A stretch of 64,000 bases of DNA from an uncultured Candidatus Saccharibacteria bacterium (GTDB taxonomy: Bacteria > Patescibacteriota > Minisyncoccia > Portnoybacterales > UBA2143), in NCBI GenBank assembly GCA_964413015.1, contig CAYPQZ010000008.1:37387-101386 (forward strand), in the 5' to 3' direction. Below are positions 27,179-38,069 of this stretch, one piece after another. A model generated the notes under the pieces. The model saw only the letters and a list, made by a program, of their open reading frames with translations, searched no databases and was not told the DNA's origin. Position 1 is the stretch's first letter, and every line of letters starts with the position of its first letter. Both the position numbers and the translations under genes were made by a program.

Positions 27179-27382
27179 TTATCTATTGGGCAATATTTTC
27201 TTAATTTTCTTATTATCAACCTGTGCGACATTTTTCATTTTTCTTTTAGCTCTGGTTTTATTGCCTGATTCTTTGGCATTGAAATGGCCTTGATGAATCG
27301 GGCGATGCATTATTTTCCCCTTGTCAGTTATCCGGATTCTTTTTAACAGAGCTTTTCTGGCTTTGGTTTTAACTTTAGTCAT
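27179..27382 (-). CDS. rpmI: 50S ribosomal protein L35
   Basis: 67 aa starting MTKVKTKARKALLKRIRITDKGKIMHR, the L35 signature. Confidence 0.9.
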   Translation of the reverse strand: MTKVKTKARKALLKRIRITDKGKIMHRPIHQGHFNAKESGNKTRAKRKMKNVAQVDNKKIKKILPNR

Positions 27383-27924
27383 TTTTGCGATTTGCTTATT
27401 ATCATCAACAACCCGCGCGGCTGTTTTTTTATTTCCTGTTCTATTTTGATTTCTAAATTAATCGATTCGATAAATTGGTTGAATTTTTCTTTGGCCAATT
27501 CGGCTAAAGAAAAGCTTTTTTCCCGGCCGCGCAGAATCATTTCTATTTTAACTTTATGTCCCTGCTCAAGGAATTTTTCGGCCCGTTTGGCTTTTATCTC
27601 TAAATCATGCTGGCCAGTTCGGAAACTGATTCTAATTCCTTTCAACTCGTCATTCTTCTGTTTAATTCTTTGGGTCTTTTCTTTTTTGGATTTCTGGTAT
27701 TTATATTTCCCGTAATCCATTATCCGGCAGACAGGAGGTTTGGCGTTAGGGGCAATTTCAATTAAATCAAGCCCTCTTTCCCGGGCCATTTTAAGCGCTT
27801 TTGACGTCTCAGTAGTCCCTAAATTATTGCCTTGTTCATCAATCAAATGTATCGGACTGATTTTAATCCAGTGGTTGACCCTGGTTCGCGCTTGATATTT
27901 TTTATTGGAGTATCTCTTGTAAAT
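27379..27924 (-). CDS. infC: Translation initiation factor IF-3 (probable non-AUG, AUU-type start)
   Basis: The ORF track starts at a TTG in the middle of the IF3 N-domain. The reading frame stays open upstream to 27933 and encodes ...KKYQARTRVNHWIKISPIHLIDEQG, which aligns with the E. coli IF3 N-terminus ([22 protein letters not shown]). No in-frame ATG is present. The ATT at 27922-27924 is the best candidate start. Confidence 0.8.
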   Translation of the reverse strand: MYKRYSNKKYQARTRVNHWIKISPIHLIDEQGNNLGTTETSKALKMARERGLDLIEIAPNAKPPVCRIMDYGKYKYQKSKKEKTQRIKQKNDELKGIRISFRTGQHDLEIKAKRAEKFLEQGHKVKIEMILRGREKSFSLAELAKEKFNQFIESINLEIKIEQEIKKQPRGLLMIISKSQK

Positions 27925-27949: not shown

Positions 27950-28283
27950 TGGAGATGGCGGGAATCGAACCCGCGTCTAAAAGGCATTTCTTAATAATTC
28001 TACAAGCTTAGCTTGATTTGGATAAAATTAAAAACTTAAAACCAAGCAAAAAATTTTTAATTTTTGTTTCTAAGATTCAACAATCAGCTGAAACCTTCCG
28101 ATTGTTTATCCTGATAGGATAACACCCAAAGCTTTTCATCAGGAGTCAAAAGTTCGGATGGCTACTTATTTAAGCAGTAGCAAAAGCTAAATTTTCGTTA
28201 GCAATTATTAGTTTGCGAGATTAACGAGTTCGCGCTCGGCTTGCTTATTAAAAAAAGAACTTTTATCGATGCCTGGCATCCCC
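27950..28283 (-). ncRNA. ssrA: tmRNA (ssrA)
   Basis: Reverse strand: the 5' GGGGAUGCCAGGCAUCGA pairs with the 3' ...GACGCGGGUUCGAUUCCCGCCAUCUCCA (tRNA-like T-arm + acceptor). The internal tag frame GCU AAC GAA AAU UUA GCU UUU GCU ACU GCU UAA (ANENLAFATA*) parallels ANDENYALAA. It lies immediately downstream of smpB. Confidence 0.75.
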
Positions 28284-28955: not shown

Positions 28956-30443
28956 GTGATTAAAAAAAGAATAGAGCAATTAGTTAAAGAAATCGTCAAA
29001 AAGGAAGTTAAGTTGGAGCATCCAGCCAGGCCCGAATTTGGCGACTATTCAACTAATGTTGCTTTAGAAAATAAAATTAACCCGGCTAAAATAATTGAAT
29101 CGTTAAAAGCTCATCCTCTTTTTGATAAGGTGGAAAAAGCCGGACCCGGCTTTATTAACTTTTTTTTATCTCCCAAAACTCTTCAGGAAGAATTATCTGA
29201 AATTATTAAAGAGGGAGATGATTACGGCAAATTGGATATTGGCCAGAATAAGAGAATCCAAGTGGAGTTTATTTCAGCTAATCCAACCGGACCCTTAACC
29301 GTTGGCAATGCCCGGGGCGGGCCCTTCGGTGATGTGCTGGCGAATATTCTTAATAAAGCTGGTTTTAAAACTGAAAAGGCCTATTATGTCAACGACGCCG
29401 GCCAGCAGATTTTGGAATTAGGTAAAGGCAAGTATCAAAGCGATTATGTTGATAAAGCAAGAAAAGAAATAAAAGAGCAAGATGCTTATCGGGCCGGTCA
29501 AATTTTAGCCAAGCATATTGTTAAAGATTTAATTCAAAAGACAACCGATAAACTTGGAATTAAATATGATGAGTGGATTTTTGAATCAGATTTACATAAG
29601 TCAGGCAAGACTGATAAGATTTTAAATCTTTTGCAAGAGAAGCATTTAATTTATGAACAGGACGGTGCCCAATGGTTCAAATCAAAGCGGTTTGGCGATG
29701 AGCGGGACCGGGTAATGATTAAACAAAACGGCCGCAAAACCTATTTAGCCGGCGATCTTGCCTTGCATCAATACAAATTTGATGATAAAAAATTTGATAA
29801 GGTAATTAATGTTTGGGGAGCCGACCATCATGGCGATATTCCCGGACTGACGGCCGGCTTGGAAGCTCTCGGGTATAAAGATAAACTGGAAATTATTCTC
29901 TTGCAGTTTGTTACTATTATAGATAAAGGCAAAAAGCAGAAAATGTCTAAGAGAGCCGGCGCTTATGTCCTTATGGATGAATTGTTAGACAAAGTCGGAG
30001 TTGACGCGGTTCGTTTTTTCTTCTTACAGAAATCAGCCGATACTCATTTGAATTTTGATTTAGATTTGGCCGAGGAACAATCAAACAAGAATCCCGTCTT
30101 TTATGTCCAGTATGCCCACGCCCGAATTTGCAGTATTTTAAAAAGGATAAAGTCGGGGGCTGCTTCCGACTTACAGGGACAGTCCCCAATAAGCCATTCG
30201 GCCGAACTGGATCTTACGCGCCAGTTAGTTAAATTTCCGGAAATTATTGAAGATACCGCTCAAGATTACCAAATTCAGCGGCTATCCCATTATTCTTTGG
30301 AATTAGCCAACAGTTTCCATAAATTTTACGAGCAGTGCCAGGTTTTGGGAAATCATAGTCGCATTAATTTAGTCAAAGCAACTCAAATTGTTTTGAAAAA
30401 CACTTTGGTGCTGATGGGCGTTTCAACTCCGGAGAAGATGTAA
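28956..30443 (+). CDS. argS: Arginyl-tRNA synthetase (short N-terminus)
   Basis: 495 aa class I aaRS with a HIGH-like motif (SANPTGPLTVGNARGG), a KMSK variant (QKMSKR) and a DALR anticodon-binding C-terminus. Confidence 0.9.
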   Translation: MIKKRIEQLVKEIVKKEVKLEHPARPEFGDYSTNVALENKINPAKIIESLKAHPLFDKVEKAGPGFINFFLSPKTLQEELSEIIKEGDDYGKLDIGQNKRIQVEFISANPTGPLTVGNARGGPFGDVLANILNKAGFKTEKAYYVNDAGQQILELGKGKYQSDYVDKARKEIKEQDAYRAGQILAKHIVKDLIQKTTDKLGIKYDEWIFESDLHKSGKTDKILNLLQEKHLIYEQDGAQWFKSKRFGDERDRVMIKQNGRKTYLAGDLALHQYKFDDKKFDKVINVWGADHHGDIPGLTAGLEALGYKDKLEIILLQFVTIIDKGKKQKMSKRAGAYVLMDELLDKVGVDAVRFFFLQKSADTHLNFDLDLAEEQSNKNPVFYVQYAHARICSILKRIKSGAASDLQGQSPISHSAELDLTRQLVKFPEIIEDTAQDYQIQRLSHYSLELANSFHKFYEQCQVLGNHSRINLVKATQIVLKNTLVLMGVSTPEKM

Positions 30444-30587
30444 GGGCTTTGTCTGATTCGCTGAAAGCGGATCAGGCACAAAATCTTACCTGCCCAAATT
30501 TTTGCGAAGCAAAAAAATGTGGCGGGTACTCAATTTAATTACTAAATTTTCTTCGCTTGACAGTTTAAAAATTTAGATAAAATTAGT

Positions 30588-33500
30588 ATGGAACCACTTC
30601 CTAAAATAGAAAAAAGAATATTGAAATTTTGGCAGAAAGAGAATATTTTTGCCAAATCAGTTAAGCTTCGTCAAAAGAAGCCATTTTTTAGTTTTTACGA
30701 CGGCCCGCCTTTTGCGTCCGGCTTGCCTCATTACGGCCATATTTTAGCCAGTACAATTAAAGATACTGTTTTGCGCTATTGGTCTATGAAAGGCCGACAT
30801 ATTTTTTGGCGAGTCGGCTGGGATTGTCACGGACTACCGGTGGAAAATATGATTGAACAGGAATTAGGTCTGAAAAATAAAAAGGATATTGAAAAATTCG
30901 GGATTAAGAAATTCAATCAAGCCTGCCGTCAATCGGTTTTTCGCTGTATTAATGATTGGTATAAGTTTTTTAATCGGATTGGCCGCTGGTCTAATTTTTC
31001 CCAGGCCTACGCCACTCTGGACAATGAATATATTGAATCGGCTTGGTGGGTTCTTAAGCAATTATGGGAAAAAGATTTGGTCTATCAGGATTTTAGGGTT
31101 ACCCCTTATTGCCCGCGCTGCGGAACTCCTTTGTCTAATTTTGAATTAAATCAACCCGGCGCTTATCGGCAGGTTGAAGACGAATCTGTTTATCTTAAAT
31201 TTAAACTTAAAAAATCGACCAATACTTATTTATTAGTTTGGACGACTACTCCTTGGACTTTAGCCGCTAACACGGCTGTCGCTGTTAGCCCGGATTCCCA
31301 ATATGTCAAAGCCAAACGAGGCAATGAATATTTAATTTTAGCTAAGGAGAGGTTGTTGGTTTTAGAGGATTATAAAATCGTTGATCAATTTCCCGGTCAG
31401 GAATTAATCGGCCGGGAATATCAGCCTCTCTATCCGATGAAATTGGATAAAGCGGGTTACCGGGTTGTTCCGGCTGACTTTGTTTCAATAGAAGACGGGA
31501 CCGGTTTGGTCCATATTGCGCCAACTTTCGGTGAGGAAGATATGGAATTAGGCCAGAAAGAAAATCTGCCCGGACTGATTACCGTTGACCAAGAAGGCAA
31601 GGTAGTCAAGGGTTTGGGTATCCCCGGTCAGGGCAAGTTTATCAAAGAGGCCGATGCTGATATTAAAGCCGATTTAAGGAAAAGAAATTTATTATTCCGA
31701 GCGGAAAAAATTACTCACGCTTATCCTTTCTGCTGGCGTTGCGAAAGCCCCTTGCTGTATTATCCGATTAACAGTTGGTATGTGAAAGTAACTAAATTTA
31801 AGAAAGAATTAGTGAAGAATAATAAAGAAATCAAATGGGTTCCTGGCCATTTGAAAAAAGGCCGTTTTGGCAAATGGTTAGAAGGGGCGCGCGATTGGTC
31901 TATTTCCCGAAATCGTTATTGGGGAGCGCCGATTCCTATCTGGCAGTGTCAGAAATGCGGCCGAGTTGAAGTCATAGGCAACTTGCAGGAAATGGCTCTT
32001 CGGACCAAACGCAACTGTTACTATATTCTGCGTCATGGCCAGACAGTTAATAACCTGAAAAAAATAATTTATACCGACCAAGAAAACAAACAGAGGCCGT
32101 TAACTCAAGCAGGTCGGCGCAAGATTAAATGGCTAATTCCTAAGCTCAAAAAAACCAAAATAGATTTAATTTTTACTTCTGATTTTTTTAGAACTTCCCA
32201 AACTGCTTCTATAATTAGTCAGGCCTTGGATATCAAAGTAATTTATGACAAACGCTTGCGTGATGTGGATGTGGGTTTATTTAAAGGCAAATCTATAAAA
32301 GAATATCATACTTATTTTCAGGATAATAATTTGAAAAGATTCCAAGAGAAAGCTCCCGGTGGCGAGAATCTCAAACAGGTCAAAAAAAGAGTGATGAATT
32401 TTCTCTTGGCGGTTGATAAAAAATACCGGCACAAAAACATTCTGATTATCAGTCACGGTGATCCACTTTGGATTCTCAAGGGAGCCAGCCAGGGATTTAA
32501 CAATGAGCGGTTGGCCAAGAACAGAAATAAAGAACTTGTTCAACCCGGCCAATTAGAAACGCTTAAGTTTAAAAAACTTCCTTTTGACCAGGAAGGCAAC
32601 TTGAATTTGCATCGGCCTTATGTTGATCAGTTAGAGATTCCCTGCCCTTGCGGCGGAATCATGACTAGGACTTCCGAGGTTTTTGACTGTTGGTTTGAGT
32701 CAGGCTCAATGCCTTACGGTCAGTGGCATTATCCTTTTCATAATAAAAAGTTGGTGGAAAAGGCCTTCCCGGCTGATTTTATTGCTGAAGGTATGGACCA
32801 GACGCGAGGCTGGTTTTACACTTTGCATGTTTTGGCAACCGCTCTGACCTTGAAAAATATTGGCTTAGGCAAAAACAAGCCGGCTTTTAAAAATGTTATT
32901 GTAAACGGTTTAGTTTTAGGCGAAGACGGCAAGAAGCTTTCCAAGCGTTTAAAAAATTATCCTGACCCGGAAATTGTTTTTGACAAATATGGAGCAGATG
33001 CTCTGCGCTATTATTTATTAACTAGTACACCGATGGGCGAGGACTATATTGCTTCAGAAAAAAGAATTGCCGAAACTTTTCGCCGGACTATTTTAACTTT
33101 TTGGAATTCCTTTACTTTTTTGGAAACTTATACGGATAAAGAATGTTTAGCGCCCAAATCAGTCCAGCCAAAAAATATTTTGGATAAATGGATTATTTCC
33201 CGGCTCAATTCTCTCAATCAGGAGCTAGTCAATTGGCTGGATAAATACGAACTGACTAAGGCTGCTCGTTTACTTGACGAATTTTTGGACGATTTTTCCA
33301 ATTGGTATGTTCGGCGTTCCCGCCGCCGTTTTCAAAGGCCTAATAATCCGATTGAAAAAAAAGAGGCCGAACAAATTTACTCTTTTGCCCTTTTGCGCTT
33401 AGCTAAATTGTCGGCTCCTTTTATTCCCTTCTTAACCGAAGAAATTTATCAACATTTAGAAAAGGGAACTTCGGTCCACTTATGTGATTATCCAAAGCCG

Positions 33501-34013
33501 GATAAAAAATTAATTGACAAACGGTTGGAAGAAAAAATGTCGCAGTTACGTCAATTAGCCGCTGAAGGATTGGCCCAAAGAGCTAAAGACGGAATTAAAG
33601 TTAGACAGCCGTTGAAAAAAATGACAATTAATAACAAGTTGATAGCGGCTGGCAAAGAATTGGCCGGTTTGTTGGCTGAAGAAGTCAATGTCAAAAAAAT
33701 TGTTTTGGGTAAAAGCATTAGTCTGGATACTAAAATTAGCCCGGCTCTTAAAGCTGAGGGGACTATTCGCGATTTAGTCCGTTCAATTCAGGAAATGCGC
33801 AAAGACGGCGGGTTAAAGCCGCAGGACAAAATTTATCTGCGCTATTCAACAGATTATTCTTTAAAAAAATTGATTCAGAAAAACGAATTGATTATTAAAG
33901 CGGAAGTTTCAGCCAGACAAATAGAAGAAGCCACTAAAAGAAAAGAAGTTTTTCTGGTCGAAAGAGAAGTTAAGTTAGATGGGCAGAAAATCTGGCTGGG
34001 GATTAAGAAATAA
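30588..34013 (+). CDS. ileS: Isoleucyl-tRNA synthetase (type 2) with embedded histidine phosphatase (PGAM-like) domain
   Basis: 1141 aa with HIGH (PPFASGLPHYGHIL) and KMSKS (KLSKRLKNY). An insert of about 170 aa (approx aa 470-640) carries LRHGQT...SDFFRTSQTA...ISHGD, the RHG/His-phosphatase signature. Confidence 0.9.
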   Translation: MEPLPKIEKRILKFWQKENIFAKSVKLRQKKPFFSFYDGPPFASGLPHYGHILASTIKDTVLRYWSMKGRHIFWRVGWDCHGLPVENMIEQELGLKNKKDIEKFGIKKFNQACRQSVFRCINDWYKFFNRIGRWSNFSQAYATLDNEYIESAWWVLKQLWEKDLVYQDFRVTPYCPRCGTPLSNFELNQPGAYRQVEDESVYLKFKLKKSTNTYLLVWTTTPWTLAANTAVAVSPDSQYVKAKRGNEYLILAKERLLVLEDYKIVDQFPGQELIGREYQPLYPMKLDKAGYRVVPADFVSIEDGTGLVHIAPTFGEEDMELGQKENLPGLITVDQEGKVVKGLGIPGQGKFIKEADADIKADLRKRNLLFRAEKITHAYPFCWRCESPLLYYPINSWYVKVTKFKKELVKNNKEIKWVPGHLKKGRFGKWLEGARDWSISRNRYWGAPIPIWQCQKCGRVEVIGNLQEMALRTKRNCYYILRHGQTVNNLKKIIYTDQENKQRPLTQAGRRKIKWLIPKLKKTKIDLIFTSDFFRTSQTASIISQALDIKVIYDKRLRDVDVGLFKGKSIKEYHTYFQDNNLKRFQEKAPGGENLKQVKKRVMNFLLAVDKKYRHKNILIISHGDPLWILKGASQGFNNERLAKNRNKELVQPGQLETLKFKKLPFDQEGNLNLHRPYVDQLEIPCPCGGIMTRTSEVFDCWFESGSMPYGQWHYPFHNKKLVEKAFPADFIAEGMDQTRGWFYTLHVLATALTLKNIGLGKNKPAFKNVIVNGLVLGEDGKKLSKRLKNYPDPEIVFDKYGADALRYYLLTSTPMGEDYIASEKRIAETFRRTILTFWNSFTFLETYTDKECLAPKSVQPKNILDKWIISRLNSLNQELVNWLDKYELTKAARLLDEFLDDFSNWYVRRSRRRFQRPNNPIEKKEAEQIYSFALLRLAKLSAPFIPFLTEEIYQHLEKGTSVHLCDYPKPDKKLIDKRLEEKMSQLRQLAAEGLAQRAKDGIKVRQPLKKMTINNKLIAAGKELAGLLAEEVNVKKIVLGKSISLDTKISPALKAEGTIRDLVRSIQEMRKDGGLKPQDKIYLRYSTDYSLKKLIQKNELIIKAEVSARQIEEATKRKEVFLVEREVKLDGQKIWLGIKK

Positions 34014-34020
34014 GGTAATT

Positions 34021-34139
34021 AAAGGACGTTAAAAAATTTAAGGATTGTCATTAAGGATCACGTCCCTTTGCTGCAGGCGAAGGGCGTGTCCGCCTATCCG
34101 CCCCTGGAGGGAAAGGACGACTCCTTAAATTTTGACAAG
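34021..34139. repeat. Composite palindromic repeat module A (left copy), in inverted orientation relative to 42461..42575
   Basis: About 115 bp nearly identical to the reverse complement of 42461..42575. It contains the internal hairpin CCCTTTGCTGCAGGCGAAGGG. Confidence 0.7.
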
Positions 34140-34149
34140 AACAAGCAGA

Positions 34150-34211
34150 TAAGGGCAGTCTTTAAAATTACGCCCTTGTGCTCAAGGGACATAATTTTAA
34201 GGACTGTCCTT
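34150..34211. repeat. Palindromic P element copy (AAGGRCAGTCTTTAAAATTACGCCCTTG...CAAGGGACATAATTTTAAGGACTGTCCTT)
   Basis: About 60-bp imperfect hairpin. The same family occurs at 277..338, 55744..55803 and 57931..57990, with short relatives at 15587..15620 and 56803..56832. Confidence 0.7.
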
Positions 34212-34252
34212 ATGCTGCGGTAATTCTTAAATTTTTTAAAGGGACATTATTT

Positions 34253-34825
34253 GTGCTTTATAAAACCCAAGGGATTATTATTAAAAGGAACAATTTGGGC
34301 GATTTTGACCGTCTGCTGACTGTCTATACCGGACATTTTGGCAAGATCCTATTGAAAGGTAAGTCAATTAGGAAGAATCAATCAAAACTAAAAGGGCATT
34401 TGGAGCTTTTTTCTTATGTTGATTTATTAATCGCTCCCGCCCGCAATGCTTTACGTAGCGATACGGGCGGGCCTGTCCGGAGATTGGATGTTATAACCGG
34501 AGCGGAGACGATTGAAAGCTTTCATCGGCTCCGCAAAAACTTGCCTTCTTTGTCAGCCACATATTATCTTTCAGAATTGACTGATAAAATGGTCATTGGT
34601 TCAGAGAGAGATGAAAATGTCTGGCCGACGCTTTTATCCAGTTTCCGGGAACTTAATCGACCAAGCCAGAATATTAAAGCTGTTGTTAGTAATTTTGAAA
34701 ACAAATTATTGGAATTTTTGGGATATGGCCATCAAAAAAATCCACTTAATTTTATTGAGTCATTTTTAAGGGAGAGCTTAAATTCAAAGCATTTTTTACA
34801 AGAAGCTTTTTATCTGTTAGAATAA
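34253..34825 (+). CDS. recO: DNA repair protein RecO (short form)
   Basis: The N-terminal OB-fold region (GIIIKRNNLGDFDRLLTVYTGHFGKILLKGKSIRK) is RecO-like. The ORF-track start at 34178 lies inside the P repeat. The GTG at 34253 gives a canonical RecO N-terminus. Confidence 0.55.
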   Translation: MLYKTQGIIIKRNNLGDFDRLLTVYTGHFGKILLKGKSIRKNQSKLKGHLELFSYVDLLIAPARNALRSDTGGPVRRLDVITGAETIESFHRLRKNLPSLSATYYLSELTDKMVIGSERDENVWPTLLSSFRELNRPSQNIKAVVSNFENKLLEFLGYGHQKNPLNFIESFLRESLNSKHFLQEAFYLLE

Positions 34826-34829
34826 AAAT

Positions 34830-36722
34830 ATGCCTAAAAAGCTTAAGAAACTTAAGGAACTTGAGGAATTAAGAAAAAAGCTTTATAAGCCAGAATCCAA
34901 ATTTAGAGAGCGTTTGGAAACACCGGAAATGTTTCGGGCCGGCGAAGAGACGGAAAAAATTTCTTCAGAAAAATTTTCCCAAGAAGTTCCCCGAAAAAAA
35001 TTATCAGAAAAGCAGAAAGAATATCTGCGCTGGGTTTTAGTTTCTTCAGGCGCGGTTTTTTTAATCGTTGTCGGATTTATGATTTGGCATGGCCTGACTT
35101 CATTTGACAAAGACAAAGTCATTTTGAGGATTCAAGGGTCGGATGGGATAGCCAGCGGCGACGAAGTAACTTATATTGTAAAATATAAAAACGAGACCAG
35201 ACTGACTTTAGAGGATGTCAAATTAGTTTTCCATTATCCGGAGGGGTCAATCCCGACAGATACGGAAAATCTTACAGAAACTTGTGAACTGCCTAATTTG
35301 AAACCTGGCCAGGAAAATCAAGTTGAGTTTCCGGCAATAGTCATTGGCTTGAAAAAAGAGAACAGAAACGTTCGGGCAGAATTAAGTTATCGACCGGGGA
35401 AAATTAGTTCCCGATTTGCTAATCAAGCTGAATTTTCCACAGAAATAATTTCAGTGCCTCTGACAGTTGATCTTGAAATGCCTGAAAAATTAGTTAGCGG
35501 ACAATCTTTCAATTTTATTATAAGATATTCAAATGAATCAAGAACCATTTTTGACAATTTACAAATTAGGATTGATTACCCTGACGGATTTAATTTAACA
35601 TCGTCTGACCCTGATCCTCTGGAGGAAGGCAGAATTTGGCAAATCGGCGAATTAAGAGCTAAAGATGATGGGGAAATTTTTATTAAAGGTTCTGTCCAAG
35701 GAGAGCAAAACGAAATGAAATCTTTTAAGGCGCAAATCGGGATTCTTGAAAATGACCAATTTATTGGTTATTCTGAAATAGTCGATTCTTTTAAAATCTC
35801 CGCTTCTCCTTTATTTATTAGTCAGACTGTCAATGGGTCAAAAGAATATATTGCTAAAGCTGGCGAGATTTTGAAATATCAGATTGATTATCAGAATACT
35901 ACTAACGTCGGCATTAAGAATGTAGTTATTACTGCGAAATTAGAAGGCGATGCTTTAGATTTAACCAAATTAAAATTAGAAGGAGCATCTTTTGACGGAA
36001 CAAGCCAAACAATAGTTTGGAATGCCGGCAATGTTCCGCAACTGGCTTTTCTAGACCATTATCAAAAGGGTAAACTTTATTTTTTAGTTAATGTTAAGGA
36101 ACCTCTGCCTATTCAAGAATACGCTGATAAAAATTTCTCTATAATTAATGAAGTCAAAATAGATTCTTCAGAAACGCCCGATGTTCTAAAAGATATTCAG
36201 ATTTCCGGGCAAAGCAAAATGACCACTAAAGTTGCCAGCCAGTTAAGCATTCAGGCTGAAGGATATTTTAATGATGATTTAATAAGCAACAGCGGGCCGA
36301 TTCCTCCCAAGGTCGGACAAACAACCACTTATACAATTAAATGGCGGATGACAAATACGGCTAATGATTTAAACGATGTAGAAGTTAAGGCATTTTTACC
36401 TCCTCACGTTCATTGGAACAACAAAATTGTTCCGGCAGATTCTGATTTGAAGTATAATTCACAAACCGGTCAGGTTGTCTGGAAAGTTGGGGATTTACCG
36501 TCTGCTACCGGTATTCTTTTGCCAGCTAGACAGACGGCTTTCCAGATATCGGTGACTCCCGGAACAGCTCATCTTGGCAAGTCAATGGAATTAATTGGCC
36601 AATCTACAGCGACCGGTTATGACAGTTTTGTTGATTTAGAATTAAGCAGTTCAGACATAATTATTGATACAAAATTACCTGATGATTTAACTCTTAAACA
36701 AGACGGCAGAGTAGAAGAGTAA
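34830..36722 (+). CDS. Membrane-anchored surface protein with DUF11-type repeat (beta-sandwich) domains
   Basis: 630 aa with a charged N-terminal cytoplasmic tail, one TM (VLVSSGAVFLIVVGFMIW), then repeated modules resembling DUF11/conserved repeat domain (GEILKYQIDYQNTTNVGIKNVVITAKL). Confidence 0.5.
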   Translation: MPKKLKKLKELEELRKKLYKPESKFRERLETPEMFRAGEETEKISSEKFSQEVPRKKLSEKQKEYLRWVLVSSGAVFLIVVGFMIWHGLTSFDKDKVILRIQGSDGIASGDEVTYIVKYKNETRLTLEDVKLVFHYPEGSIPTDTENLTETCELPNLKPGQENQVEFPAIVIGLKKENRNVRAELSYRPGKISSRFANQAEFSTEIISVPLTVDLEMPEKLVSGQSFNFIIRYSNESRTIFDNLQIRIDYPDGFNLTSSDPDPLEEGRIWQIGELRAKDDGEIFIKGSVQGEQNEMKSFKAQIGILENDQFIGYSEIVDSFKISASPLFISQTVNGSKEYIAKAGEILKYQIDYQNTTNVGIKNVVITAKLEGDALDLTKLKLEGASFDGTSQTIVWNAGNVPQLAFLDHYQKGKLYFLVNVKEPLPIQEYADKNFSIINEVKIDSSETPDVLKDIQISGQSKMTTKVASQLSIQAEGYFNDDLISNSGPIPPKVGQTTTYTIKWRMTNTANDLNDVEVKAFLPPHVHWNNKIVPADSDLKYNSQTGQVVWKVGDLPSATGILLPARQTAFQISVTPGTAHLGKSMELIGQSTATGYDSFVDLELSSSDIIIDTKLPDDLTLKQDGRVEE

Positions 36723-36737
36723 TCTAAATTAAGAATT

Positions 36738-38069
36738 ATGGCGACTATGGAAAAAATTATATCACTTTGCAAAAGACGAGGATTGATTGCCCCCTCCAGT
36801 GAAATCTATGGCGGTTTTGAAAGCTGTTATGATTATGGCTTTCTGGGAACCTTGTTAAAAAATAATATTAAACAGAATTGGTGGAAGTCAATGACTCAAT
36901 ATCGTTCCGATATTGTCGGTTTAGACGCCAGTATTTTAATGTCGCCGAAGGTCTGGCAGGCCTCGGGCCATTTAACGGCCGGTTTTTCTGACCCGCTGGT
37001 TGAGTGTAAAAATTGTCATCATCGTTTTCGCAAAGATTATCTCAAAAGTGACAAATGCCCGGATTGCGGTGGAGAACTGACCCAGGAAAAGAAATTTAAT
37101 TTAATGATGAAAACTTTTGTCGGACCCCTGGAAGACGAGGCGGCCGTTGCCTATTTGAGAGGAGAAACCTGCCAGGGGATTTATATGAATTATCAATTTA
37201 TGAAAGAAACAATGCGCCTGAAAGTTCCTTTCGGCATTGCCCAAATCGGTAAGGCCTTTCGCAATGAGATTACCTGCCGCTATTTTATTTTTAAAATGAG
37301 AGAATTTGAGCAAATGGAGATGCAGTATTTTGTTAAACCAGACGAGAAAGAAAAAGAGAAAATATTTAATTATTGGCAGAAAGAGAGAATGAATTGGTAT
37401 TCAAGCTTAGGAATTAAAAAAGAAAATTTGCGTTTTCGCGAGCATCAAAAAAATGAACTAGCTCATTATGCCAAAAGGGCGGTGGATATAGAATATAAAT
37501 TTCCTTGGGGATTTGATGAAATAGAGGGGATTCACGACCGAGGAGATTGGGATTTATCTAATCACAGTCAGCACAGCGGACAGGACTTAAGCTATTATGA
37601 CGATTCAACTAAAAAGAAATTTATCCCTCACATTATTGAAACATCGGCTGGAGCGGACCGTAATTTTTTAGCTTTTCTAATTGACGCTTACGATGAAGTG
37701 GCCGGTGGCCGGACCAAGACAACCGAAGCCAATAAAGCCACTGAAATTGTTTTGCGTTTGGATAAAAAAATAGCTCCGATAAAATTAGCTGTTTTGCCCT
37801 TAGTTAAAAATAAAAAAGAAATTATTGAAAAAGCGAAACAAGTTTATGATTCGCTTAAATTTAAATGGACGGTTCAATATGATGAGGGAGGTTCAATCGG
37901 CCGGCGCTATCGCCGTCAGGATGAAATCGGGACGCCTGTTTGTTTGACGATTGATTTTGATAGCTTAAAAAACGATGATTTAACAGTCCGTGACCGTGAT
38001 ACTATGGAACAAAAAAGAGTCAAAATCAAAGAATTAAAAGATTATTTAAAGGAGAAGATTGATGTATAA
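36738..38069 (+). CDS. glyQS: Glycyl-tRNA synthetase (class II, alpha2 type)
   Basis: 443 aa with an N-terminus IISLCKRRGLIAPSSEIYGGFESCYDYGFLG typical of dimeric GlyRS, class II motifs and a C-terminal anticodon-binding domain. Confidence 0.9.
   Translation: MATMEKIISLCKRRGLIAPSSEIYGGFESCYDYGFLGTLLKNNIKQNWWKSMTQYRSDIVGLDASILMSPKVWQASGHLTAGFSDPLVECKNCHHRFRKDYLKSDKCPDCGGELTQEKKFNLMMKTFVGPLEDEAAVAYLRGETCQGIYMNYQFMKETMRLKVPFGIAQIGKAFRNEITCRYFIFKMREFEQMEMQYFVKPDEKEKEKIFNYWQKERMNWYSSLGIKKENLRFREHQKNELAHYAKRAVDIEYKFPWGFDEIEGIHDRGDWDLSNHSQHSGQDLSYYDDSTKKKFIPHIIETSAGADRNFLAFLIDAYDEVAGGRTKTTEANKATEIVLRLDKKIAPIKLAVLPLVKNKKEIIEKAKQVYDSLKFKWTVQYDEGGSIGRRYRRQDEIGTPVCLTIDFDSLKNDDLTVRDRDTMEQKRVKIKELKDYLKEKIDV

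What the first reader, a model, noticed from the sequence alone, without database searches (positions are those of the whole stretch)
31980..32520. Isoleucyl-tRNA synthetase carries an embedded histidine-phosphatase (PGAM-like) domain
The 1141-aa IleRS has a ~170-aa insertion between the PIPIWQCQKCG zinc-knuckle region and the resumption of the catalytic core (DCWFESGSMPYGQWHYPF). The insertion reads like a branch-1 histidine phosphatase: LRHGQT (catalytic RHG), SDFFRTSQTA, ISHGDPLWIL. I am not aware of phosphoglycerate-mutase-type domains inside aaRS catalytic cores. It could act on a phosphorylated nucleotide such as Ap4A or (p)ppGpp-like alarmones, or on a phospho-intermediate.
Basis: seen in the sequence. 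Interest (0 to 1): 0.6.

Follow-up and report, generated by a model that had tools for sequence, protein, structure and literature searches.

The report
Phosphatase domain nested inside isoleucyl-tRNA synthetase
An essential translation enzyme (isoleucyl-tRNA synthetase) of a tiny candidate-phyla-radiation bacterium carries a complete, apparently active phosphatase folded into one of its surface loops; the same partnership recurs across hundreds of related genomes and in the sister enzyme for valine, and I found no paper describing it.

Summary
ORF 30588-34013 (+) is a full isoleucyl-tRNA synthetase (IleRS). Residues 474-672 are a complete branch-1 histidine phosphatase (Pfam His_Phos_1, E 2e-32), and all catalytic residues are present.

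- **Insertion site:** the domain replaces 8 residues in the loop of the zinc knuckle of the CP3 subdomain (Thermus thermophilus IleRS numbering 481-488).
- **Not a one-off:** 59 of the 120 closest IleRS carry it at the same site.
- **Linkage to ileS:** in 78 of 78 informative species-representative genomes, the phosphatase is either embedded in ileS (57) or is a separate gene directly upstream (21, often overlapping by 4 nt). Close relatives of the window have lost it entirely.
- **Other arrangements:** some IleRS carry it at two further sites or as tandem copies. Valyl-tRNA synthetases (ValRS) of Gracilibacteria and Peregrinibacteria carry 1-4 copies at the homologous CP3 loop.
- **Conservation:** the catalytic residues are invariant in every form.

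I read it as an active accessory phosphomonoesterase that is functionally tied to class Ia synthetases. The substrate is unknown. My leading guess, at about 25%, is a blocking phosphate on the tRNA 3' end or a nucleotide at the active site. I found no publication. I rate it a new variant of a known kind, interest 0.7.

The parts
30588..34013 (+). ileS: complete isoleucyl-tRNA synthetase ORF (1141 aa plus stop) carrying the nested phosphatase
   Evidence: ORF. TIGR00392 879 bits against cutoff 621. Best solved match is 1ILE, E 2e-236. Full-length AlphaFold model has pLDDT 89.7 and pTM 0.81.
30588..32006 (+). IleRS residues 1-473: first half of the Rossmann fold (HYGH 48-51), CP core, CP1 editing domain (WTTTPWT 217-223), CP2, and the first half of CP3 with Cys454/Cys457
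   Evidence: Aligns to 1ILE residues 10-480. Motif positions. Domain names from PMC7191050.
31947..31958 (+). First Cys pair of the CP3 zinc knuckle (C454-Q-K-C457)
   Evidence: Aligns with T. thermophilus CQAC. C454 and C457 are nearly invariant in alignment A2.
32007..32603 (+). The insert: residues 474-672, a complete histidine-phosphatase domain plus linkers, nested in the CP3 loop
   Evidence: This segment is absent from 1ILE, where 8 residues take its place, and from 61 of the 120 closest IleRS. The domain model has pLDDT 90.7.
32022..32513 (+). Pfam His_Phos_1 match, residues 479-642
   Evidence: E 2.1e-32, profile positions 2-166 of 194.
32031..32039 (+). Catalytic R482-H483-G484 (phospho-accepting histidine)
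   Evidence: R and H are invariant in 59 embedded and 120 free-standing domains and in nearly all copies of the multi-copy proteins.
32190..32192 (+). R535, second phosphate-binding arginine (FFRTSQTA motif)
   Evidence: Invariant in all 179 domains.
32364..32366 (+). E593, putative proton donor (PGGEN motif)
   Evidence: Invariant in all 179 domains. Aligns with the GE motif of PhoE.
32454..32456 (+). H623, second catalytic histidine (ISHGD motif)
   Evidence: Invariant in all 179 domains.
32577..32600 (+). C-terminal linker specific to the embedded form, L664-P-F-D-Q-E-G-N671 (consensus LP[YF][ND]xxG)
   Evidence: Conserved in embedded domains (P665 in 52 of 59, G670 in 53 of 59) and absent (gapped) in 115 of 120 free-standing proteins.
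32643..32651 (+). Second Cys pair of the CP3 zinc knuckle (C686-P-C688)
   Evidence: Aligns with T. thermophilus CAC. Nearly invariant in A2.
32604..34010 (+). IleRS residues 673-1141: end of CP3, second half of the Rossmann fold (DCWFESG 700-706, KLSKR 783-787), anticodon-binding domain and C-terminal domains
   Evidence: Aligns to 1ILE residues 489-821. Pfam Anticodon_1 at 866-1011 and DUF5915 at 1042-1141.
28956..30443 (+). argS (arginyl-tRNA synthetase), the conserved upstream neighbour. In relatives the free-standing phosphatase gene sits between argS and ileS; in the window there is only a 144-nt gap.
   Evidence: Pfam Arg_tRNA_synt_N, tRNA-synt_1d and DALR_1. Synteny. No second phosphatase copy anywhere in the window.

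Best explanation
**Shown.** The gene encodes a complete type-2 (Thermus-like) isoleucyl-tRNA synthetase. A whole PhoE-like histidine phosphatase of about 190 aa is nested in the tip loop of its CP3 zinc knuckle. The phosphatase keeps every residue needed for the phospho-histidine mechanism (R482, H483, R535, E593, H623). The IleRS keeps its HIGH and KMSKS motifs and its editing motif. The full-length model folds confidently around the insert.

The same phosphatase lineage is tied to ileS across Parcubacteria/Paceibacteria in three arrangements. It is either embedded in CP3, or encoded directly upstream and apparently translationally coupled, or (in some close relatives) absent from the locus. 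It has also been captured at two other IleRS sites, in tandem arrays, and at the homologous CP3 loop of ValRS in other Patescibacteria.

**Inferred.** It is an active accessory phosphomonoesterase. Its benefit depends on being held next to a class Ia synthetase, and covalent tethering has been selected repeatedly. CP3 leaves and re-enters the rim of the synthetic active site, so the tethered enzyme probably works on something that passes through that site.

**My committed guess for the substrate (about 25%).** It removes a blocking 2'/3'-phosphate or pyrophosphate from the tRNA acceptor end, or acts on a nucleotide bound there, so that charging can proceed. That would make it a cis-acting 'end-healing' step. 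A small-molecule nucleotide substrate such as AMP, 3'-phosphonucleotides or an alarmone is about equally likely.

The confidence of 0.6 refers to the statement 'active phosphatase functionally coupled to the synthetase', not to the substrate.
For: - **Identity and boundaries:**
- **Fold:** domain pLDDT 90.7. Full length pLDDT 89.7 and pTM 0.81, with no segment below 50. Foldseek probability 1.0 and TM about 0.75 to GpgP, PspA, PhoE and CobC. Profile search against solved structures gives PhoE E 4e-24.
- **Catalytic residues:** invariant in 59 embedded and 120 free-standing domains and in nearly every copy of the multi-copy proteins.
- **Recurrence:** 59 of 120 closest IleRS carry the insert at the same site.
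- **Linkage:** of the 80 best species-representative loci, 57 are embedded, 21 are directly upstream of ileS (19 within -11 to +60 nt, five with a 4-nt overlap), 2 are cut by contig ends and none is elsewhere. L002 shows argS-phosphatase-ileS-recO in the window's gene order.
- **Independent captures:** sites 2 and 3 and tandem copies in IleRS. 70 of 120 ValRS relatives carry 1-4 copies, and in 59 of the 66 with both landmark motifs all copies lie in the CP3-equivalent loop.
- **One lineage:** embedded and free-standing forms show equal identity at matched IleRS divergence.
[quoted passage not shown] Its base residues flank the active site (PMC12077802).
- **Charge:** the window's insert and the free-standing form are very basic, at +11.6 and +12.7 net charge per 100 aa, against a window median of +3.4.
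Against: - Nothing here identifies a substrate. The closest solved relatives are generic small-molecule phosphatases.
- The tools returned no model coordinates, so I could not check whether the phosphatase active site faces the synthetic site or the tRNA.
- The insert is dispensable. Close relatives L083 and L084 have neither the insert nor an upstream gene, and presence is patchy on the IleRS tree, needing at least 12 changes.
- The charge argument is weak. ValRS-embedded copies are not basic (-1.7 per 100 aa), and IleRS-embedded copies range from -4.4 to +12.
- A tRNA-end phosphatase would be expected to help all synthetases, not only IleRS and ValRS.
- The trees are neighbour-joining on divergent sequences, so the counts of switches are rough.
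Confidence: 0.6

Rival explanations
1. Neighbour capture without mechanistic coupling. A housekeeping metabolic phosphatase (for example a PspA-like phosphoserine phosphatase or a broad PhoE-like enzyme) happened to be encoded next to ileS. It was repeatedly inserted into permissive surface loops by local rearrangement and persists because it does no harm and is co-expressed with an essential gene. Its substrate has nothing to do with aminoacylation.
For: The closest solved relatives are small-molecule metabolic phosphatases. The insert is easily lost. CP3 is a structurally variable, tolerant subdomain. The free-standing gene lies in a tightly packed housekeeping operon.
Against: Among the 78 informative species-level loci, none has the phosphatase away from ileS. 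The domain was captured independently at three or more IleRS sites, and at the homologous loop of ValRS in other lineages where two sampled insert-free relatives show no neighbouring phosphatase gene. Arrays of up to 4 intact copies exist. The domain fails the curated cutoffs for dPGM, CobC and PspA.
Confidence: 0.22
2. A cis-acting protein phosphatase that removes an inhibitory phosphate from the synthetase itself, for example the serine of the KMSKS-type loop (KLSKR 783-787). HipA-family toxin kinases target this serine in other synthetases.
For: The histidine phosphatase superfamily includes protein phosphatases (SixA, PGAM5, Sts-1), and HipA/HipT kinases phosphorylate GltX and TrpS; both points rest on my own knowledge. 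[quoted passage not shown]
Against: No kinase that targets IleRS or ValRS is known, and none was seen near the gene. The domain is closer to PhoE/PspA than to SixA: no SixA match appears among the window protein's 25 best NCBIfam matches, the only ones listed. No geometric evidence is available.
Confidence: 0.08
3. A non-catalytic appendage. The domain would serve as a structural or tRNA-binding module (a pseudo-enzyme), as many appended domains of synthetases do.
For: The window's insert and the free-standing form are strongly basic. Synthetases commonly acquire RNA-binding add-ons (my own knowledge).
Against: All five catalytic residues are invariant over 179 domains and in nearly all tandem copies, which is not expected of a pseudo-enzyme. 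ValRS-embedded copies are not basic.
Confidence: 0.05
4. An artefact or a selfish element: an assembly chimera, an intein, or a mobile insertion that is spliced out.
For: GC drops to 0.32 inside the insert. A 9-nt direct repeat flanks it in the window.
Against: The reading frame is continuous and the IleRS halves resume exactly. The same architecture occurs in more than 100 independent assemblies from several sources. Pfam finds no Hint or endonuclease domain. Junction repeats are no more frequent than in control windows. Embedded domains co-diverge with their host IleRS.
Confidence: 0.02

Closest known systems
Thermus thermophilus-type (type 2) IleRS with a zinc-binding CP3 subdomain (PDB 1ILE, 1JZQ)
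   Same: Collinear over residues 4-473 and 673-1003, E 2e-236. Both Cys pairs of the CP3 zinc knuckle are present, as are the HIGH and KMSKS motifs and the CP1 editing domain.
   Different: The 8-residue tip loop of the knuckle (481-488) is replaced by a 199-aa enzyme domain.
PhoE broad-specificity phosphatase of Geobacillus stearothermophilus (1EBB, 1H2E) and PspA phosphoserine phosphatase (4IJ5)
   Same: Best sequence-profile and fold matches (E 4e-24; TM about 0.75). Similar size of about 200 aa, with the same R-H-G...R...E...H catalytic set.
   Different: Only 23-26% identity. Those are free-standing metabolic enzymes. This lineage is always embedded in, or adjacent to, a class Ia synthetase gene, and it fails the curated PspA, CobC and dPGM cutoffs.
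CP1 editing domain of class Ia synthetases
   Same: A hydrolytic domain nested in a connective-peptide loop of the Rossmann fold of IleRS, ValRS and LeuRS, acting on a substrate delivered from the synthetic site (my own knowledge; domain map).
   Different: CP1 is universal, ancient and an ester hydrolase. This insert is lineage-restricted, gained and lost repeatedly, and is a phosphomonoesterase of an unrelated fold.
IleRS containing an N-acetyltransferase domain (NCBIfam NF040702, ileS_w_GNAT)
   Same: A curated example of an IleRS that carries an extra enzyme domain (named).
   Different: A different enzyme family. The window protein scores 260 bits against a cutoff of 1999, so it is not a member. 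I could not determine where the GNAT domain sits, and I found no paper on it.
Bifunctional RNase H / acid phosphatase (Rv2228c type, NCBIfam NF005567)
   Same: A branch-1 histidine phosphatase fused to an enzyme that acts on nucleic acid. The insert matches its phosphatase half (71 bits).
   Different: That is an end-to-end fusion, not a nested insertion, with an unrelated partner enzyme. The score is below the cutoff of 326.
ValRS with nested His_Phos_1 in Gracilibacteria/Peregrinibacteria
   Same: The same superfamily domain in the homologous CP3 loop, between WWGHxIP and DTWFSS, with 1-4 copies and intact catalytic residues where checked (the four P0247 copies).
   Different: A different synthetase and different lineages. 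The domains are more divergent (median 56 bits to the IleRS-family profile) and not basic. No adjacent free-standing gene was seen in two insert-free relatives.

Membership tests
Isoleucyl-tRNA synthetase (class Ia) | Scores above the curated cutoff of the ileS equivalog model | tested here: met
   TIGR00392 879.4 bits against cutoff 621.4. The valS model scores below its own cutoff.
Isoleucyl-tRNA synthetase (class Ia) | HIGH and KMSKS signature motifs and the CP1 editing domain with its threonine-rich motif | tested here: met
   HYGH 48-51 and KLSKR 783-787. WTTTPWT 217-223 and GTGLVH 304-309 are visible in the translation and invariant in A2.
Isoleucyl-tRNA synthetase (class Ia) | Charges tRNA(Ile) with isoleucine | not testable with these tools
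   Needs biochemistry.
Histidine phosphatase superfamily, branch 1 (PF00300) | Pfam match above the gathering score | tested here: met
   112.8 bits against 21.7, residues 479-642.
Histidine phosphatase superfamily, branch 1 (PF00300) | Catalytic core: RHG histidine, two arginines, second histidine, acidic proton donor | tested here: met
   R482, H483, R535, E593 and H623 are present and invariant across 179 family members.
Histidine phosphatase superfamily, branch 1 (PF00300) | Alpha/beta/alpha fold of the superfamily | tested here: met
   Model pLDDT 90.7. Foldseek probability 1.0 and TM 0.72-0.78 to solved members.
Histidine phosphatase superfamily, branch 1 (PF00300) | Phosphatase or mutase activity through a phospho-histidine intermediate | not testable with these tools
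   Needs an enzyme assay.
Cofactor-dependent phosphoglycerate mutase (dPGM, 'PGAM' in the strict sense) | Reaches the curated cutoff of a dPGM equivalog model | tested here: not met
   dPGM_arch 86 bits against cutoff 225. GpmB 64.4 against 261. PRK01295 36 against 316.
Alpha-ribazole phosphatase CobC and phosphoserine phosphatase PspA | Reaches the curated cutoff of the equivalog model | tested here: not met
   TIGR03162 77.8 against 162.9. PspA 66.2 against 350.
IleRS with GNAT domain (NF040702) | Reaches the curated cutoff and contains an acetyltransferase domain | tested here: not met
   260 bits against 1999. No GNAT family in the Pfam scan.
Intein or other self-splicing or mobile insertion | Hint/intein splicing domain or homing endonuclease; target-site repeats | tested here: not met
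   No such Pfam family was found. Junction repeats are no more frequent than in the control.

The most novel reading that the evidence does not exclude
Class Ia synthetases of candidate-phyla-radiation bacteria have repeatedly built in a phosphatase that repairs or licenses their own substrate. It would remove a blocking 2'/3'-phosphate or pyrophosphate from the tRNA acceptor end (such as those left by RNases or added by toxic alarmone-synthetase homologues), or an inhibitory phosphate from the synthetase. This would be a second, previously unknown kind of built-in quality-control or repair activity in aminoacyl-tRNA synthetases, alongside CP1 editing.
Probability: 0.2. Interest if true: 0.85.

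Novelty: new variant of a known kind. Interest (0 to 1): 0.7.

Why it matters
Aminoacyl-tRNA synthetases are among the best-studied enzymes. Their known nested catalytic module is the CP1 editing domain. Here a second, unrelated catalytic domain sits in the catalytic core of IleRS and ValRS. It recurs in hundreds of genomes, was gained independently at several sites, and also exists as a translationally coupled partner gene. That pattern is a strong sign of an unrecognised activity coupled to tRNA charging in a large and poorly understood part of bacterial diversity.

The hypothesis is directly testable with a recombinant protein: phosphatase assays, an H483A mutant, an insert deletion, and tRNA with a blocked 3' end. 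The family also offers natural controls, because embedded, free-standing and absent forms occur in close relatives. At the least, the automated label 'class I tRNA ligase family protein' hides a well-defined bifunctional architecture that deserves its own family model.

Tried and rejected
1. **Chance motifs in a normal connective peptide.** Rejected by HMM and fold evidence.
2. **Assembly chimera, intein or mobile element.** Rejected. The frame is continuous, there are more than 100 independent occurrences, and no splicing domain is present.
3. **The 9-nt direct repeat GGCAACTTG at both junctions (31977-31985 and 32595-32603) as a deletion or insertion scar.** Rejected as chance. Across 57 embedded loci, junction repeats are no longer than in control windows.
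4. **Embedded and free-standing forms as two ancient paralogues.** A first tree suggested this, with 3 changes over 179 sequences. It was rejected on genome-matched data: 7 changes on both trees, and equal identity for same-state and mixed pairs at matched IleRS divergence.
5. **A degraded phosphatase remnant between argS and ileS, or a second copy in the window.** Nothing found.
6. **Strong positive charge as a general sign of RNA binding.** Only partly upheld. It is true for the window's clade and the free-standing form but not for the ValRS-embedded copies.
7. **Literature.** Nine full-text searches found no description of a histidine phosphatase in or next to a synthetase, or of the GNAT-containing IleRS. 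A 2026 preprint on IleRS domain evolution does not mention it.
8. **Promoter and terminator scan around the gene.** Only AT-rich noise.
9. **Geometry of the phosphatase relative to the synthetic site.** Not obtainable, because the structure tool returns no coordinates.
Full report
**1. The observation**

The window holds a 1141-aa ORF at 30588-34013 on the + strand. It is an isoleucyl-tRNA synthetase (IleRS):
- NCBIfam ileS equivalog TIGR00392 scores 879 bits, against a cutoff of 621.
- The best solved relative is Thermus thermophilus IleRS 1ILE, E 2e-236.

Pfam finds His_Phos_1 (PF00300) at residues 479-642 (E 2.1e-32, 112.8 bits against a gathering score of 21.7). This match splits the class I synthetase match in two.

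**2. Exact anatomy**

HMMER aligns residues 4-473 to 1ILE 10-480 and residues 673-1003 to 1ILE 489-821. The insert is therefore residues 474-672 (nt 32007-32603) and replaces eight residues of the Thermus enzyme.

It lies between C454-x2-C457 and C686-x-C688. These align with the Thermus CQAC and CAC Cys pairs. By my recollection of the 1ILE description these are Cys461/464 and Cys502/504, the second zinc site. According to the Candida albicans IleRS structure paper, this region is the CP3 subdomain. [quoted passage not shown]

An alignment of the 120 closest IleRS shows clean junctions (`...IGSLKEL` | insert | `DLHRPxID...CxC`). The spacing between the Cys pairs is 217-238 residues in 59 proteins and 26-39 residues in 61.

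The embedded form has a conserved C-terminal linker, LP[YF][ND]xxG (664-670), that free-standing homologues lack.

Structure predictions:
- The domain alone is predicted with pLDDT 90.7.
- The whole protein has pLDDT 89.7 and pTM 0.81, with no segment below 50.

Both partners are therefore predicted to be folded and intact.

**3. What the domain is**

A profile of the family finds PhoE of Geobacillus stearothermophilus (E 4e-24) and the PspA phosphoserine phosphatase as the closest solved sequences. Foldseek gives probability 1.0 and TM about 0.75 to GpgP, PspA, PhoE, CobC and phosphoglycerate mutases.

The domain stays below the curated cutoffs of every specific NCBIfam model:

| Model | Score (bits) | Cutoff (bits) |
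|---|---|---|
| dPGM_arch | 86 | 225 |
| CobC (TIGR03162) | 78 | 163 |
| PspA | 66 | 350 |

It is therefore a branch-1 histidine phosphatase of its own subfamily. It is not a phosphoglycerate mutase in the strict sense.

R482, H483, R535, E593, H623 and R601 are invariant in all 59 embedded and all 120 free-standing domains examined. That argues for an active enzyme.

**4. Distribution and linkage to ileS**

The identical protein is already in NCBI, JGI and Logan assemblies, labelled only 'isoleucyl-tRNA synthetase'. Relatives with the insert are often labelled 'class I tRNA ligase family protein'.

A scan of one genome per species with the domain alignment confirmed 435 matches. The 80 best fall as follows:

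| Arrangement | Loci |
|---|---|
| Embedded in ileS | 57 |
| Separate gene directly upstream of ileS | 21 |
| Cut off by a contig end | 2 |
| Elsewhere in the genome | 0 |

Of the 21 upstream genes, 19 lie within -11 to +60 nt of ileS and five overlap it by 4 nt. No locus has both forms.

Named hosts are Parcubacteria/Paceibacteria groups: Nealson-, Jorgensen-, Colwell-, Staskawicz- and Wildermuthbacteria, and Spechtbacterales.

L002 shows argS, phosphatase, ileS, recO and a 622-aa protein in exactly the window's gene order.

A third state exists. The window's closest insert-free relatives (L083, L084) have argS followed directly by ileS, with no phosphatase at the locus. The window has no second copy.

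**5. Evolution**

- On a neighbour-joining tree of the IleRS core, presence of the insert needs at least 12 changes. Near-identical sister sequences differ in state.
- Embedded domains co-diverge with their host. The window's domain is 66-72% identical to those of its six nearest relatives, and at most 49% identical to any free-standing one.
- On 70 genomes where both proteins come from the same locus, 'embedded' against 'upstream' needs 7 changes on both trees, compared with 17.5 for random labels.
- At matched IleRS divergence, phosphatase identity is the same for embedded-embedded, upstream-upstream and mixed pairs, at 0.46-0.47.

The two forms are therefore one orthologous lineage that has changed configuration several times. 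I could not resolve the direction of change or the mechanism. A 9-nt repeat at the window's junctions is not above the control level across loci.

**6. Independent captures**

An exhaustive profile search found 265 cluster representatives at E <= 1e-30. They are a mix of proteins of about 190 aa and IleRS of about 1150 aa. Unusual members show several other arrangements:
- Two tandem domains in the CP3 loop (P0343, P0350, P0366, P0335).
- A second copy at the junction between the catalytic core and the anticodon-binding domain (P0287).
- A second copy just after the DCWFESG...HYPF segment (P0303).
- One IleRS with copies at both of those sites and none in CP3 (P0379).

P0247 is a valyl-tRNA synthetase (ValRS) with four tandem copies. 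Following it up gave these results:
- 70 of its 120 closest ValRS relatives, from Gracilibacteria and Peregrinibacteria, carry one to four copies.
- In P0396 the insert lies between Thermus ValRS residues 432 and 445.
- In 59 of the 66 proteins with both landmark motifs, all copies lie between WWGHxIP and DTWFSS, which is the loop homologous to the IleRS CP3 site.
- Nearly all copies keep the catalytic set.

**7. Mechanism**

*Shown:* a folded, catalytically equipped phosphomonoesterase is held on, or made together with, a class Ia synthetase, and this has arisen repeatedly.

*Inferred:* proximity to the synthetase is what is selected. CP3 leaves and re-enters the rim of the synthetic site: it begins after the WGxPIPxW segment and ends at DxWFxSG. 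The likeliest substrates are therefore things that pass through that site.

I commit, at about 25%, to removal of a blocking phosphate from the tRNA acceptor end or from a nucleotide bound there. A small-molecule nucleotide substrate is about as likely.

The strong positive charge of the window's insert (+11.6 per 100 aa) and of the free-standing proteins (+12.7), against a window median of +3.4, fits a polyanionic partner. The ValRS-embedded copies are not basic, so this is weak support.

*Against any essential role:* the insert is lost in close relatives.

The main rival, at about 22%, is neutral capture of a neighbouring housekeeping phosphatase. Protein dephosphorylation of the synthetase, a non-catalytic appendage and an artefact are less likely.

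**8. Novelty**

Nine full-text searches and a look into a 2026 preprint on IleRS domain evolution found no description of this architecture. The corpus covers open-access papers only.

The sequences themselves are public and automatically annotated. Nested domains in synthetases are a known theme: the CP1 editing domain is one, and NCBIfam lists a GNAT-containing IleRS. I therefore rate this a new variant of a known kind. It has high specialist interest because a second catalytic activity inside the core of two synthetases is unexpected and readily testable.

Noticed in passing
window 27950-28283 (-) and 27379-27846 (-): A tmRNA gene with tag peptide ANENLAFATA lies just upstream of the argS-ileS block. 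The adjacent ORF is translation initiation factor IF3.
   Followed up: partly
window 28956-38069 (+): Three synthetase genes are clustered: argS, ileS, and a class II enzyme (tRNA-synt_2b plus HGTP_anticodon, 36738-38069). recO and a 630-aa DUF11/DUF7619 protein lie between them. The same order is kept in L002, L083 and L084.
   Followed up: partly
window 34178-34825 (+): The RecO-like ORF, listed from a GTG start, is 215 aa, whereas relatives are 156-178 aa. The true start is probably further downstream. A hairpin with a T-run sits at 34173-34188, on both strands.
   Followed up: no
window 32050-32349: GC content drops to 0.317 inside the phosphatase insert, against 0.40-0.44 in the flanking ileS sequence. 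This could reflect the lysine-rich composition or a different history of the insert.
   Followed up: no
window 31977-31985 and 32595-32603: A 9-nt direct repeat, GGCAACTTG (coding G-N-L both times), flanks the insert. Across 57 related loci such junction repeats are no more common than in control windows, so it is probably chance.
   Followed up: yes
L087 656-2608 (-): On a contig carrying a ValRS with a nested phosphatase, a 650-aa class II synthetase (tRNA_anti-codon plus tRNA-synt_2) has an extra DUF2000 domain. This is another synthetase with an appended domain in these bacteria.
   Followed up: no
proteins P0283 and P0377 (free-standing, about 410 aa): Some free-standing phosphatases are tandem two-domain proteins, and both copies are catalytically intact.
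   Followed up: partly
L084 4783-4953 (+): In an insert-free relative, a 56-aa ORF with a weak DUF7129 hit lies between argS and ileS, where other genomes have the phosphatase gene. The window's class II synthetase (36738-38069) also has a weak DUF7129 hit at its N-terminus.
   Followed up: no
(tool behaviour): Searching with the insert alone returned only free-standing proteins and missed every IleRS-embedded copy, including the identical protein P0121. This is a limit of the word index. It would have wrongly suggested that the fusion is unique.
   Followed up: yes
L003-L082 record titles: Many metagenome-assembled genomes are titled 'uncultured Candidatus Saccharibacteria', although the named relatives of these loci are Parcubacteria/Paceibacteria groups. 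The titles look generic and should not be used for taxonomy.
   Followed up: no
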